A stretch of 64,000 nucleotides of DNA from the human T2T-CHM13v2.0 reference genome, Homo sapiens: assembly GCF_009914755.1 (NCBI RefSeq), contig NC_060946.1, one strand, 5' to 3'. This document shows, piece by piece, positions 12,124 through 15,589 of the stretch. A program made the position numbers and the translations under genes. How positions within the stretch are numbered: the first letter of the stretch is position 1; each line of letters begins with the position of its first letter. The notes beneath the pieces were generated by a model, which was not told the DNA's origin, did not search any database, and saw nothing but the letters and a program-made list of their open reading frames with translations.

Positions 12124-13375
12124 GTTGCTGAGAAAATATTCATGGAAAATAGACCTAAATTGATACTGCCTGTTGACATAATTTACTTTACTGATCTTTT
12201 CCTTCACCATTTTAATAAATAGCTCAGACAATAATGAGTCCAATTCAAAAATAATAATAGAAAAGACACCAGCACTGTGCCTGTGTAACATATATTTCAT
12301 GTTAGAGAAAAGCAACAAAGACAATATAATATTAAAAGACAGAAAAAAATTACATGCCACATTGACTATCATTGAATCACAAAGTGAATACAAATTTTTA
12401 ATGCATTGTTTCATTAAATCAAATTCCCCTTCCCGCACCAATACAACTCCTCTGATGTAAGTGACCTAAAAAGACATAAATAGGTTTTAAAGCAGATATA
12501 AGATAAATGCAATATATGTAGAGTGACTTTAGGGAAAGATAAAAGGAAAAATACCTTTTATCTGAGAAATATATATCACACTAGAAACAGCAAGAATGAA
12601 GAATAGATATTTTCAAAATTTACTCAAATAAATGGGTATAAGAAAAAAATCGAGCAAAACAAAATGGAAAAGAATAAATAGGTAACAAGGGTAGAACAAT
12701 ATTTATAGTTGTTTGAAGACAGACAAAGCTGACCTAACATGTTACCATGTATATTTTATCCAGTTTTCCAATTTTGTTTTTATTGCTGGAAAGTTAATTT
12801 GGTCAGAGTTATTTCACCATATTAGCAAGTATAATTTTCAAAACTCACACCCCTTACTTTTTGTATCTTATTTTTTATCCTTTTATTACATATTTTATAA
12901 TATTATATATTCTATACTGAATTATACAGTAAATAAAAAATAAAATATGAACACAACAATTTCATAGAAATGGTGAGTTTTTTTTTTAATTGAGGCAGAA
13001 GTTCATGACTTGAAAATAGAATGATGCAGTAAAGAAATAAACTCAAGAACTCATTTTATGGAAAACGTGAAAACAATTTGCAACATTAAAATAATTAATC
13101 AGAACCTCAATCCAGATTAAGAAGGAATAGAGAACAAATATTCAAATTGGAAGGCAATGAAAATATAATCACAGATATTGATCAAGTAATTAGATAAGAT
13201 CATTTTCTTAATTTTACACAAATATATTGGAAACCCTGGATTATATGATTTTTTCCATATGAAAATATAAGTGACCAAAATGACAAGAGTTATAAGATCT
13301 CAGTATCTTATTAATGGAGAAAAAGATGTTGAAGATATAAAATTCTGAACATTCTCCTCTCAACAAACAGACACC

Positions 13376-13569
13376 AACTCGTCATCTGGCATTAGGTATA
13401 TCTCCCAATGCTATCCTTCCCACCTACCCCCACCCCACAACAGAAAGTGCACCGGCATGGCACATGTATACATATGTAACTAACCTGCACATTGTGCACA
13501 TGTTCCCTAAAACTTAAAGTATAATAATAATAAATAAATAAATAAATAAAAACTTTTAAATAAAAAAAA
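13376..13569 (+). mobile_element. Young L1PA (L1PA2-like) 3' end with 5' inversion (twin priming); driver of the CFTR transduction
   Basis: 13376-13443 is antisense L1 3' UTR (AACTCGTCATCT.GCATTAGGTATATCTCCCAATGCTATCC). 13446-13525 is the sense L1 terminus (GCACC.GCATGGCACATGTATACATATGTAACTAACCTGCACATTGTGCACATG..CCCTAAAACTTAAAGTATAAT), followed by a (TAAA)n tail. Confidence 0.92.
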
Positions 13570-13972
13570 TGGGGACCATTTGCTTATGTGGTTATTAAGG
13601 TCAAATGTAAGTCATGATTTTCCTCGACCAGCTCTGAAAAAATGTCTGTTCTGGTTAAGACTGGGTAAAATGGATGATTTATTTATTCAATAAAGTTATT
13701 GAATGCTCGCCGTGTGCAAGATACAGTGTTGAATGTGGTGCGAGATATAAAGATGTGGAAGAAAAAGCCACTGAAAATAATATGAGGAAATAAAAAACTA
13801 GAGTAAATTATCAGTGGAATAATTTCTATTACACAAGACACTACACCCAAACATTCTCCTAATGCTCATGTAAGAATTTCTCCAAAAATACCTTCCAGCA
13901 CTACAAACTAGAAGACAAAAGAGACATGGATACCAAATTAAGTTCTTAATAGTGAAGAATAAAAGAGACTAC

Positions 13973-14146
13973 CTTGCCTGCTCCAGTGGATCCAGCAACA
14001 GCCAACAACTGTCCTCTTTCTATCTTGAAATATCTTTCAGGACAGGAGTACCAAGAAGTGAGAAATTACTGAAGAAGAGGCTATCATCACCATTAGAAGT
14101 TTTTCTGTTGTTATTGTTTTGTTTTCTCAAATAATTCCCCAAATCC
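13973..14146 (-). pseudogene. CFTR: Pseudo-exon: CFTR exon 10 (NBD1 N-terminal part up to Walker A GSTGAGK), disrupted
   Basis: AG/GT boundaries intact. 174 bp versus 183 bp native, due to 5-bp and 4-bp deletions. The native frame reads [11 protein letters not shown] (stop at codon 12). The 3' end still encodes [19 protein letters not shown]. Confidence 0.96.
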
Positions 14147-14173
14147 CTGTTAAAAAAAACACACACACACACA
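14147..14173 (-). promoter_or_regulatory. Paralogous CFTR (TG)m(T)n splice-acceptor tract, here TG7-T8
   Basis: + strand CTGTT A8 (CA)7 immediately before the pseudo-exon. Confidence 0.93.
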
Positions 14174-14178
14174 TCAAA

Positions 14179-14214
14179 AATAAAAGATGAGTTTGTCAGA
14201 AAAAAAAAAAAAAA
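14179..14214 (+). terminator. Polyadenylation signal and poly(A) tail of the transduced RNA
   Basis: AATAAA at 14179-14184 and A15 at 14200-14214, where CFTR homology ends. TSD AAACAGACA at 14212-14220 and 13365-13373. Confidence 0.85.
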
Positions 14215-15589
14215 CAGACAAATCAGCAGGCATGAACATTTTCAGGAAGAAATGTATCAAGATATGAAAGTACTGATAACTCAATGCTATTTAAAGTTTT
14301 CCTCTTTTAATTCTAGCTATGAAAAATTAATTTGTATTAGGCCATCCCACTTGGCAAGAACAATTATGAAAGCTGGATAAAATTAATTAAAAATAAGTAG
14401 CTATTTAAGGCCTTCTGATAGCAATCAAAGTATCCAGAACTTGAGTGTGTAAGCTCTCATAAAGAAGAGAAACACATTGAATTGATTTCAACATTCTCCA
14501 CAACCTTTCATTTGGATACATTTGCTGAGCAGATAGCTAAGAAGAAAATGGTAGCTCAAAGATGTTAGAAATCTGGTAGGCCTGCATAGACAACAATTGG
14601 AATTCATGACTATCATGGTGGCCAGGGCTTGATAAAGGGCCAGTAGAAACAAAACAATTTCGTTTTGTTTTTCCTTCACAGCATTTTCTGATTCTTTAGT
14701 TGCAGAAGGTGAGCAACTAAGAAGCTTAGCATAAAATGGAGCTACCCGACTAAAAGGAAGTTAAGCAGACCTCTCAGCAAAAGGATAGACAAAATTGGAG
14801 TTCAACAAGGAACAGAGGACCTAGAAATCTCTGTAGGCATTGAGACCCCTAAAAAGCTAATTCCTAGCTGAAAAGGCAAACTAGAAATGCACCAGCTGCC
14901 ACAAAAACTGAAATCTAGCCTCAAGGCATTTCAGTCTGATTAGACCAAGAGGATCTACCTCTAAGCCAGAAGAAAACTACAATTTCTTTGGAGGGAGATC
15001 CCATCTAAAGACTTTTTCTCTTAGGTCAATGTCTGGCTTTTGATCATAAATAACCAGGCGTATCAGTCAGCAGGGCTAAATGATGCATGCACACACATGT
15101 GCGTGCACGCACAAACAGAGCGAGAGTGACAGAGGGAGAGGAGAAATCCATAGCTTTAAATGTTTCCATGTAAAGAAAATAAAAATACTTCCAAATATAT
15201 TTATGAATAAATATTGTATTTATACTAAACTGGACCAAAGCTGAACACATGTGTTCTCTTCCCATCCCTTTCTCTTCATCTCTCTCATATACACTACACA
15301 CAATAAAATACAGGCCTATTCCACTAATAAATATTACTGCAAATATTCTAAAGCTGTACTTTACAATTAAAAGTTGCAATCCCATTAAAATCATACTTCA
15401 TAATCAAGTAGTGTTCATGTTAGTAAGCAAGAATGGATGACTATTAGGAAATAGTTTACTATAATTTATCATGTTAATAGAAAAACAATAATCTCCAGAA
15501 ACTTCAACATATATTACCAATTAAATAATATTAATAGAATAGTATTATAATGAGATAGATGCAATTTAATCCAAAATTCAGAATTTATG

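What the first reader, a model, noticed from the sequence alone, without database searches (positions are those of the whole stretch)
13365..14220. Complete L1 3'-transduction carrying CFTR exon 10, with every mechanistic hallmark preserved
Seen in order: TSD AAACAGACA (13365-13373); antisense L1 3' piece; sense L1 terminus with (TAAA)n tail; ~630 bp of antisense CFTR intron-exon-intron; AATAAA (14179); A15; TSD (14212-14220). Established knowledge: this layout is L1 read-through (3' transduction) with twin-priming inversion, and amplified CFTR exon-9 copies are a known phenomenon. Inference: an AATAAA on the antisense strand, inside the CFTR acceptor polypyrimidine region, terminated the transcript. 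This is a clean natural example of L1-mediated exon mobilisation.
Basis: partly seen in the sequence, partly recalled or inferred. Interest (0 to 1): 0.8.

Follow-up and report, generated by a model that had tools for sequence, protein, structure and literature searches.

The report
Known L1-carried CFTR exon copy
This is one of the long-known stray copies of a CFTR exon that an L1 jumping element carried into duplicated DNA near centromeres millions of years ago; its anatomy is unusually clean, but the case is already described.

Summary
Its three refutation tests all failed to refute.

- **Empty sites:** four paralogous sites carry a single AAACAGACA with uninterrupted flanks.
- **CFTR homology:** it runs from window 13561 to 14200 and stops where the untemplated A-run begins.
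- **L1 piece:** it has no TSD of its own.
- **Exon identity:** the exon is CFTR residues 404-464, i.e. exon 10, legacy exon 9.
- **L1 pieces:** both are L1 3'UTR, arranged as twin priming predicts.
- **One event:** six genomic copies share every junction (chr22, chr14, three on chr20, chr9). That means one insertion, later spread by segmental duplication.

One thing is not shown. No L1 lies beside the segment at the CFTR gene in this genome. Read-through (cis) 3' transduction is therefore the most likely mechanism but is inferred. Template switching in trans, or a nested second insertion, remain possible.

The amplified CFTR exon 9 copies are in print: Rozmahel 1997 and Ejima & Yang 2003, seen only as reference-list entries, and cited for "orphan transductions". 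Verdict: real, clean, already known, low interest.

The parts
13365..13373 (+). 5' target-site duplication AAACAGACA
   Evidence: The sequence is single at the four empty paralogous sites.
13374..13443 (-). Inverted L1 3'UTR piece (about 3'UTR nt 49-118 of an ordinary copy). Its 3'-most L1 end abuts the 5' TSD.
   Evidence: in 5 of 5 ordinary L1 3' ends examined, this piece (turned round) lies directly 5' of the direct piece on the same strand; the ORF just upstream in L012 is the last 169 residues of LINE-1 ORF2p (E 3e-114).
13444..13445 (.). 2-nt filler (AA) at the inversion joint. 5-7 L1 nucleotides are missing between the two pieces.
   Evidence: One search compared with the sequence.
13446..13533 (+). 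Direct L1 3'UTR terminus (from about 3'UTR nt 126 to the end)
   Evidence: It coincides with NCBI's masked stretch 13452-13573 given in the hub's note.
13534..13552 (+). Patterned A-rich L1 tail, (TAAA)n then A5, shared by all six copies with small length changes
   Evidence: Similar patterned tails occur in 2 of the 5 ordinary L1 copies.
13553..13560 (+). CTTTTAAA. No origin could be assigned: it is neither L1 3'UTR nor demonstrably CFTR.
   Evidence: a local score of 6 against the 40 nt upstream at CFTR is reached by 1294-1611 of 2000 shuffles. It is present in all six copies.
13561..13972 (-). First ~411 nt of CFTR intron 10 (legacy intron 9), antisense. It starts with an A8 run (13562-13569) that overlaps CFTR's AACAAAAA.
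13973..14146 (-). CFTR exon 10 (legacy exon 9), antisense. 174 nt here against 183 nt in the gene, broken by a 4-nt and a 5-nt deletion.
   Evidence: residues 412-445 and 446-464 in different frames. The intact gene exon equals residues 404-464.
14147..14200 (-). Last ~54 nt of CFTR intron 9 (legacy intron 8), antisense, including the (TG)n(T)n tract read as A8(CA)7
14179..14184 (+). AATAAA polyadenylation signal on the antisense strand of CFTR, templated at the gene. It ends 15-16 nt before the last templated base.
14200..14214 (+). A15 run. 11-15 of the A's are untemplated: the first A can be CFTR's, and the last three can belong to the TSD.
   Evidence: at the gene, GTCAGA is followed by TATTTTCAATAGATGCTTGTTTTATG, with no A-run.
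14212..14220 (+). 3' target-site duplication AAACAGACA

Best explanation
**Proposed event.** This is one ancient L1-driven retrotransposition, roughly 10-25 million years old on an assumed rate. It inserted a chimeric RNA into a segment that already had paralogues.

**The RNA.** It most likely began in an active L1 that then sat, antisense to CFTR, about 410 nt downstream of exon 10 (legacy 9). Transcription ran past the L1's own weak poly(A) signal and through intron, exon 10 and the (TG)n(T)n tract on the antisense strand. It was cleaved and polyadenylated 15-16 nt after an AATAAA that the antisense strand happens to carry.

**Integration.**
- The L1 enzymes nicked the target at ...CAAC|AAACAGACA.
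- Reverse transcription was primed on the poly(A).
- About 640 nt of CFTR, the L1 tail and about 90 nt of L1 3'UTR were copied.
- The second nicked strand primed internally on the same RNA (twin priming). This produced the 70-nt inverted L1 piece and a 9-nt target-site duplication.

**Afterwards.** The filled copy was spread by segmental duplication to chr20 (three copies), chr9, chr14 and chr22. The source L1 in CFTR was never fixed or was lost.

**Shown:** the retrotransposition hallmarks, donor identity, twin-priming geometry, single origin, and spread by duplication.

**Inferred:** the source L1 in CFTR (the cis step), the use of the AATAAA, and the date.
For: 1. Empty sites. The left flank has exactly 10 paralogues in the genome (10 of 10 candidates scored): 6 filled and 4 empty. 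The 4 empty ones read ...CTCTCAA[C/T]AAACAGACAAATCAG... with one copy of the 9-mer.

2. Donor. The CFTR part occurs at 7 places (7 of 7 scored): the 6 filled copies and chr7:118863930-118864574. The exon there is intact and identical to CFTR residues 404-464.

3. Sharp 3' edge. Homology ends at GTCAGA. The gene continues with T/GT-rich sequence and the copy continues with A15. AATAAA is templated in the gene.

4. L1 pieces. Both are 3'UTR. They are contiguous and co-oriented in 5 of 5 ordinary L1 copies, but inverted relative to each other here. The 3'-most end of the inverted piece sits at the TSD, and 5-7 nt are missing between the pieces. This is the geometry of twin priming (mechanism recalled: Ostertag & Kazazian 2001).

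5. One event. All six copies share both TSDs, both L1 pieces, the tail, the odd 8-9 nt, the AATAAA and the poly(A). On a flank tree the six filled copies are one side of a branch with support 99/97.

6. Order L1 3' end, own A-rich tail, unique DNA, signal, poly(A), with the TSDs outside the whole. This is the standard signature by which 3' transductions are called (established knowledge, recalled).

7. The CFTR 5' boundary falls on TT|AACAAAAA. Only 6 of 20590 positions on that strand are of this kind. That is what the target site of a lost source L1 would look like.
Against: 1. No L1 lies at the boundary in the CFTR gene of this genome, and no L1 3' end lies within 10 kb on either side. The only hit there is a (TAAA)n microsatellite.

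2. Between the L1 tail and CFTR lie 8-9 nt (CTTTTAAA+G/T) of unassigned origin.

3. After those nt comes an A-run of only 8-9. Up to 8 of these can be CFTR's own AACAAAAA. The run was already this short when the copies began to duplicate. That is short for the poly(A) of a young, active source L1.

4. The target nick (bottom strand 5'-GTTT/GT) matches the recalled TTTT/AA consensus only partly.

5. The A-rich boundary is also expected under microhomology or template-switch models, so it does not discriminate.

6. [quoted passage not shown] One paper cites it beside the CFTR exon 9 paper. From recall, unverified, it treats this case and argues for trans.

7. No sibling insertions from the supposed source exist.
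Confidence: 0.58

Rival explanations
1. Trans mobilisation by template switching. An independent, polyadenylated antisense CFTR transcript was reverse-transcribed by L1 enzymes at the target. The growing cDNA, ending in a T-run copied from AACAAAAA, then jumped onto the poly(A) tail of an L1 RNA from another locus and copied its 3' end. Twin priming gave the inversion.
For: - No L1 at the donor boundary or within 10 kb.
- A short internal A-run and 8-9 nt of non-L1, non-CFTR sequence at the joint. This fits an L1 RNA that ended a few nt into its own flank, or filler at a jump.
- The A-rich CFTR boundary could guide the jump.
- The title of Ejima & Yang 2003 (content not seen, recalled only).
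Against: - It needs three unusual steps in one event: trans use of a non-L1 RNA, a jump, and twin priming.
- Known template-switch chimeras mostly carry the L1 at the 3' side, not the 5' side (recalled).
- No donor L1 with this tail and junction was found. Of 32 pattern hits at up to 2 mismatches (48 for the reversed control), only the 6 unit copies have the exact core. Of the 26 other hits, 16 were examined: one lay behind an L1, and it is a different L1. The other 10 were not examined.
- No evidence here for an antisense promoter at the boundary (not testable with these tools).
Confidence: 0.25
2. Two separate insertions. First, a short twin-primed L1 fragment with its own poly(A) inserted at AAACAGACA. 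Later, a retrocopy of an antisense CFTR transcript landed inside that poly(A) tail, so its own target duplication is just A's and cannot be seen.
For: - A-runs flank the CFTR part on both sides: A8-9 on the left, A15 on the right.
- L1 endonuclease favours A-rich tails (recalled).
- The short left A-run is natural under this model.
Against: - No intermediate state exists. All 10 paralogues of the flank are either empty (4) or carry the whole unit (6).
- The filled clade has a very short stem, 0.0036, which leaves little time for two events.
- Retrocopies of unspliced antisense intronic RNA are rare, and landing exactly in this tail is a coincidence (inference).
Confidence: 0.08
3. Not retrotransposition at all: a DNA-level duplication or repair patch that happened to join CFTR DNA to an L1 fragment.
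For: The region lies in duplication-rich pericentromeric and acrocentric DNA (places).
Against: - An untemplated A-run exactly 15-16 nt after a donor-templated AATAAA.
- A 9-nt target duplication proven by empty sites.
- The twin-priming geometry.

None of these is expected from DNA-level joining.
Confidence: 0.02

Closest known systems
Amplified CFTR exon 9 sequences / CFTR pseudogenes (Rozmahel et al. 1997, Genomics 45:554; El-Seedy et al. 2009, J Mol Diagn 11:488; 'CFTRP3')
   Same: The same exon with flanking introns copied to other chromosomes. Passages read in PMC4762772 and PMC5121184 say exon 10 (legacy 9) is duplicated, with pseudo-exons or pseudogenes on chromosomes 9, 12 and 20. CFTRP3 is named in PMC12026901. 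The chr9 and chr20 copies found here share every junction with the window's copy, so this is the same family.
   Different: - This particular copy lies on the chr22 short arm, with a 99% twin on chr14. These are places the papers I could read do not list.
- No chr12 copy exists in this genome: chr12:37.43 Mb is an empty paralogue.
- Rozmahel 1997 and El-Seedy 2009 were seen only as reference-list entries. Their texts are not held.
L1 3' transduction (Moran et al. 1999; Goodier et al. 2000; Pickeral et al. 2000; titles seen, content recalled)
   Same: An L1 3' end with its own tail, then unique downstream DNA, a downstream poly(A) signal and poly(A), with the TSDs around the whole. The donor locus is uniquely identifiable.
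   Different: - No L1 at the donor in this genome.
- 8-9 unassigned nt and a very short A-run at the joint.
Twin priming / L1 5' inversion (Ostertag & Kazazian 2001; recalled, not seen)
   Same: Two adjacent L1 segments in opposite orientation. The 3'-most end of the inverted segment sits at the 5' TSD. There is a small loss (5-7 nt) and 2 nt of filler at the joint.
   Different: - It is unusually short: only about 160 nt of L1, all 3'UTR.
- It is combined with a carried non-L1 segment.
- Microhomology at the priming site is only about 2 nt (CA), which is not informative.
Trans mobilisation / template-switch chimeric retrocopies (Ejima & Yang 2003, HMG 12:1321; Buzdin et al. 2002, recalled)
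   Same: Two RNAs of different origin fused in one insertion, with one TSD pair and one terminal poly(A). No L1 at the donor.
   Different: - The L1 part lies 5' of the cellular part and keeps a complete tail.
- I could not read the 2003 paper. PMC12533184 cites it together with Rozmahel 1997 for 'orphan transductions'.

Membership tests
L1-mediated (target-primed) retrotransposition insertion | Target-site duplication flanking the whole insert, single at the empty site | tested here: met
   AAACAGACA occurs twice here and once at each of 4 empty paralogues.
L1-mediated (target-primed) retrotransposition insertion | Untemplated 3' poly(A) | tested here: met
   A15 here. The donor continues with TATTTTCAATAG....
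L1-mediated (target-primed) retrotransposition insertion | Nick site resembling the L1 endonuclease consensus (bottom strand TTTT/AA, recalled) | tested here: inconclusive
   The bottom strand reads GTTT/GT at the inferred nick: three T's before the cut, but not AA after it.
L1 3' transduction (cis read-through) | L1 3' end with its own tail directly upstream of the carried DNA, on the same strand | tested here: met
L1 3' transduction (cis read-through) | Carried DNA maps to one donor locus and ends at a donor-templated poly(A) signal | tested here: met
   chr7 CFTR is the only non-copy match. AATAAA is templated and ends 15-16 nt before the end of homology.
L1 3' transduction (cis read-through) | An L1 in the same orientation directly upstream of the carried DNA at the donor locus | tested here: not met
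   No L1 at chr7:118864584 onward, and no L1 3' end within 10 kb on either side in this genome. Source elements of old events are often lost, so this lowers the cis reading but does not exclude it. Other primates and haplotypes are not testable here.
Twin priming (L1 5' inversion) | Inverted and direct segments adjacent in L1 coordinates, the inverted segment's 3' end at the 5' TSD, a small loss or gain at the joint | tested here: met
   5 of 5 ordinary L1 copies show the two pieces contiguous and co-oriented. 5-7 nt are missing and there are 2 nt of filler.
Template-switch chimeric retrocopy (trans) | An independent transcript of the cellular part, with its own start at the joint, and a separate L1 RNA donor | not testable with these tools
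   No transcript data. The search for a donor L1 carrying this tail and junction found none.
Amplified CFTR exon 9/10 copies (CFTR pseudogenes) | CFTR exon 10 (legacy 9) with parts of both flanking introns, outside chr7, of common origin with the chr9 and chr20 copies | tested here: met
   The literature names chr9 and chr20 copies.

The most novel reading that the evidence does not exclude
The joint is compound: L1 tail, then 8-9 nt of foreign sequence, then an A-run of only about 8-9 that merges into CFTR. This, with the empty donor site, would mean the exon was not carried by simple read-through. Instead it was picked up in trans, when L1 reverse transcriptase switched from an antisense CFTR transcript to an L1 RNA that itself ended a few bases into another locus. 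That would make it a natural, datable example of trans exon mobilisation with all junctions preserved in six copies. Alternatively, the 8-9 nt would be a relic of an earlier, very short transduction that could trace the L1 lineage.
Probability: 0.25. Interest if true: 0.3.

Novelty: already known. Interest (0 to 1): 0.15.

Why it matters
- **Teaching value.** It is a good example. One 856-bp stretch shows the target duplication, twin priming, a carried exon, use of a chance antisense poly(A) signal, and later spread by segmental duplication. Empty sites and the donor are both present in the same genome.
- **Practical value.** These copies are known to confuse CFTR exon 10 genotyping. The chr22 and chr14 short-arm copies found here add two more places reads can mis-map.
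- **Scientific value.** The mechanism class and this very case are in print. Only the cis-versus-trans question is open, and it is probably already discussed in a paper I could not read.

Tried and rejected
- Self-BLAST of the window for other L1 3' ends, other unit copies or flank paralogues found only self-hits. I therefore used the whole genome.
- Pfam gave no family for the ORF upstream of two ordinary L1 3' ends (0 of 2). The PDB sequence search identified one of them as LINE-1 ORF2p.
- I tested whether CFTR homology extends left of 13561 through CTTTTAAA. It is not significant: 1294-1611 of 2000 shuffles reach the score.
- I searched the genome for the tail/joint 25-mer to find a donor or grand-progenitor L1. 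There were 32 hits at up to 2 mismatches against 48 for the reversed control, and only the six unit copies carry the exact core. Of the 26 other hits I examined 16: 15 are not behind an L1, and one (L049, chr6:1.54 Mb) is a different L1 that shares nothing else. Ten were not examined.
- I searched 10 kb on each side of the CFTR segment for an L1 3' end. There was none, only a (TAAA)n microsatellite 9.3 kb away.
- The CFTR-part tree is too short (584 columns) to resolve the order of the copies. Basal forks have under 80% support, so I draw no order from it.
- Literature: Ejima & Yang 2003, El-Seedy 2009 and Pickeral 2000 are not held. The phrase search 'Ejima and Yang' found 0 papers. Searches found no held text that describes the mechanism of the CFTR exon 9 amplification.
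- A DNA-level (non-retro) origin is rejected.
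Full report
**1. Observation**

| Window | Feature |
|---|---|
| 13365-13373 | AAACAGACA |
| 13374-13443 | Antisense L1-like piece |
| 13446-13552 | Sense L1 terminus running into TAATAATAA(TAAA)nAAAAA |
| 13561-14200 | About 640 nt that include an antisense CFTR exon |
| 14179-14184 | AATAAA |
| 14200-14214 | Fifteen A's |
| 14212-14220 | AAACAGACA again |

The 9-mer occurs 4 times in the window against 0.89 expected, and 2 of 100 shuffles reach 4. 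On its own that is weak. The empty sites below make chance irrelevant.

**2. Identity of the parts**

*CFTR exon*
- Translated antisense, 14023-14154 matches human CFTR residues 412-445 (E 4e-15).
- 13949-14035 matches residues 446-464 (E 7e-7), in a different frame.
- Similarity ends at K464, where the DNA reads a GT donor.
- The frame offset equals a 4-nt loss that removes N445.
- The DNA alignment to the gene confirms this 4-nt loss and a further 5-nt loss. The exon copy is 174 nt, at 13973-14146.

*Donor locus*
- The genome holding the window could be searched.
- The CFTR part has 7 places (7 of 7 candidates scored): six copies and chr7:118863930-118864574.
- The chr7 exon is intact. It is 183 nt and 61 residues, identical to CFTR 404-464. 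So chr7 is the gene. The exon is exon 10 in current numbering and exon 9 in legacy numbering, the equivalence stated in PMC4762772.

*L1 label*
- This also rests on a tool result. In an ordinary genomic copy (L012), the ORF that ends 49 nt before the match to the inverted piece is the last 169 residues of LINE-1 ORF2p (E 3e-114).
- Pfam found nothing for it.
- Both pieces in the window are therefore L1 3'UTR.

**3.

*(a) Empty site*
- The left flank has exactly 10 paralogues (10 of 10 scored). Six carry the whole unit.
- Four are empty: chr15:44.89 Mb, chr14:8.41 Mb, chr12:37.43 Mb and chr7:57.95 Mb. They have continuous flanks and one AAACAGACA.
- The duplication can be at most 9 nt. The base before it in the empty site is C, while the A-run precedes it in the filled site.

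*(b) CFTR homology past 14200*
- It does not continue. Homology is 13561-14200, with 614 of 656 columns identical.
- After GTCAGA the gene reads TATTTTCAATAGATGCTTGTTTTATG, and the copy reads A15 then the TSD.
- So 11-15 A's are untemplated. The AATAAA is templated in the gene and ends 15-16 nt before the last templated base. That is the usual spacing (recalled: 10-30 nt), and a T/GT-rich stretch follows in the gene.

*(c) Separate TSDs for the L1 piece*
- No further AAACAGACA lies near 13550-13575.

None of the three refutations holds.

**4. Twin priming**
- I picked 5 ordinary L1 3' ends from the roughly 30 L1 places listed. In all 5, the inverted piece (turned round) lies directly 5' of the direct piece on the same strand.
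- In the window, the L1-3'-most end of the inverted piece (...GACGAGTTGG) abuts the 5' TSD.
- The direct piece starts 5-7 nt further along the L1, at AGCGCACC. The T at 13448 is a later CpG change: four copies keep C.
- Two A's fill the joint.
- This is the geometry expected when the second nicked strand primes internally on the same RNA (mechanism recalled).
- A 2-nt overlap (CA) between the TSD end and L1 is too short to count.

**5. One event, then duplication**
- The six filled copies are chr22 (this one), chr14:8.68 Mb, chr20:25.92, 30.58 and 31.27 Mb, and chr9:48.43 Mb. They share both TSDs, both L1 pieces, the patterned tail, the odd CTTTTAAA, the AATAAA and the poly(A).
- On a maximum-likelihood tree of 3252 flank columns, the six filled copies are one side of a branch against the four empty ones, with support 99/97 and stem length 0.0036. 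So the insertion hit one member of an already duplicated segment, and that member then spread.
- The exon deletions came later. The 4-nt loss is in chr22, chr14 and chr20:30.58. The 5-nt loss is only in chr22 and chr14. A 3-nt loss is only in chr9.

K2P distances:

| Comparison | Distance |
|---|---|
| Gene to copies | 0.023-0.038 |
| Among copies, CFTR part | 0.0035-0.047 |
| Filled to empty flanks | 0.029-0.059 |

- Tip depths of about 0.014-0.022, at an assumed 1e-9 per site per year (recalled, rough), put the event some 10-25 million years ago.
- The CFTR-part tree itself is unresolved at its base.
- The chr22 and chr14 copies differ by only 0.3-0.9%.

**6. What is not shown**
- For 3' transduction proper, an L1 must have sat just upstream of the carried DNA at the donor.
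- In this genome the gene reads ...CTGAAAATTGTAATGT|TAACAAAAATGG at the boundary with no L1. No L1 3' end lies within 10 kb on either side.
- The boundary is a TT|AACAAAAA site. Only 6 of 20590 positions on that strand are of this kind. That is what the target of a lost source L1 would look like. However, an A-rich joint is also what microhomology or a template jump onto a poly(A) tail would give.
- Between the L1 tail and CFTR lie 8-9 nt (CTTTTAAA plus G in four copies, T in two) that are neither L1 nor demonstrably CFTR.
- The A-run after them is only 8-9 long in all copies. That is short for a young source's poly(A).
- A genome-wide search for this joint behind an L1 found no donor (16 of the 26 non-unit hits were examined).

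**7. Weighing the mechanisms**
- The order L1 3' end, own tail, unique DNA, signal, poly(A), inside one TSD pair, is the standard signature of cis 3' transduction.
- Source elements of old events are commonly lost, and cis needs the fewest special steps. I give it about 0.58.
- Trans template switching gets about 0.25.
- A nested second insertion into the L1's tail gets about 0.08. No intermediate exists among the 10 paralogues and the stem is very short.
- A DNA-level origin gets about 0.02.

**8. What is known**
- PMC4762772 (passages read) states that exon 10 (legacy 9) is duplicated in the genome, with pseudo-exons on chromosomes 9, 12 and 20. It cites El-Seedy et al. 2009.
- PMC5121184 (passages) speaks of pseudogenes on chromosomes 9 and 20 that mimic exon 10 variants. 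It cites Rozmahel et al. [quoted passage not shown] - I saw these three older papers only as reference-list entries. Their texts are not held.
- From memory, unverified: Rozmahel et al. already reported the adjoining L1 sequence, and Ejima & Yang re-analysed this case and argued for trans.
- Either way, the phenomenon and its link to L1 are in print.

**9. Verdict**
The event is L1-mediated, twin-primed, polyadenylated at a chance antisense AATAAA, and a member of the known CFTR exon 9 copies.
- The claim 'every hallmark preserved' goes too far, because the donor L1 is missing and the joint has an unexplained 8-9 nt.
- It is already known and of low interest.
- The only open point is cis versus trans. 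Primate and pangenome alignments of one CFTR intron position would settle it.

Noticed in passing
window 13200-15900 versus L002 (chr14:8675109-8679309): The chr14 short-arm copy is 99.1-99.7% identical to this chr22 stretch, far closer than any other copy (93-98%). This points to very recent exchange between the short arms of the two acrocentric chromosomes.
   Followed up: partly
window 15007-15020; L002 3322-3631: The chr14 copy carries about 310 extra bases here, Alu-like by eye. The 14-nt stretch 15007-15020 is present on both sides of it, and the insert is absent from chr22. It is a young insertion that arose after the two copies separated.
   Followed up: partly
L010 (chr12:37427234-37429587): A paper lists a CFTR pseudo-exon on chromosome 12 (PMC4762772). 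In this genome the CFTR part is absent from chr12 (7 of 7 hits lie elsewhere), and chr12:37.43 Mb is an empty paralogue of the target site. This could be polymorphism, an older-assembly artefact or a citation slip.
   Followed up: partly
L005 (chr20:25.92 Mb copy), aligned to window about 14208: The poly(A) of this copy holds an inserted CAAACAAAC, a budding microsatellite in the tail. The poly(A) length varies from about 9 to 16 among the copies.
   Followed up: no
L049 (chr6:1540983-1541007): An unrelated L1 ends with ...ATAAATAAAAACATTTGAATAAAAAAA. This is an A-rich tail interrupted by a short non-A stretch and followed by a second A-run, much like the joint in the unit. Compound tails of this form therefore occur in ordinary L1 copies.
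   Followed up: partly
window 13998-14001 and aligned copies: The codon for CFTR A455 differs among the copies (read by eye). It is silent in chr22 and chr20:25.92 and reads as valine in chr20:30.58. The A455E change that PMC5121184 reports for a chr20 pseudogene is not present in any copy of this genome.
   Followed up: no
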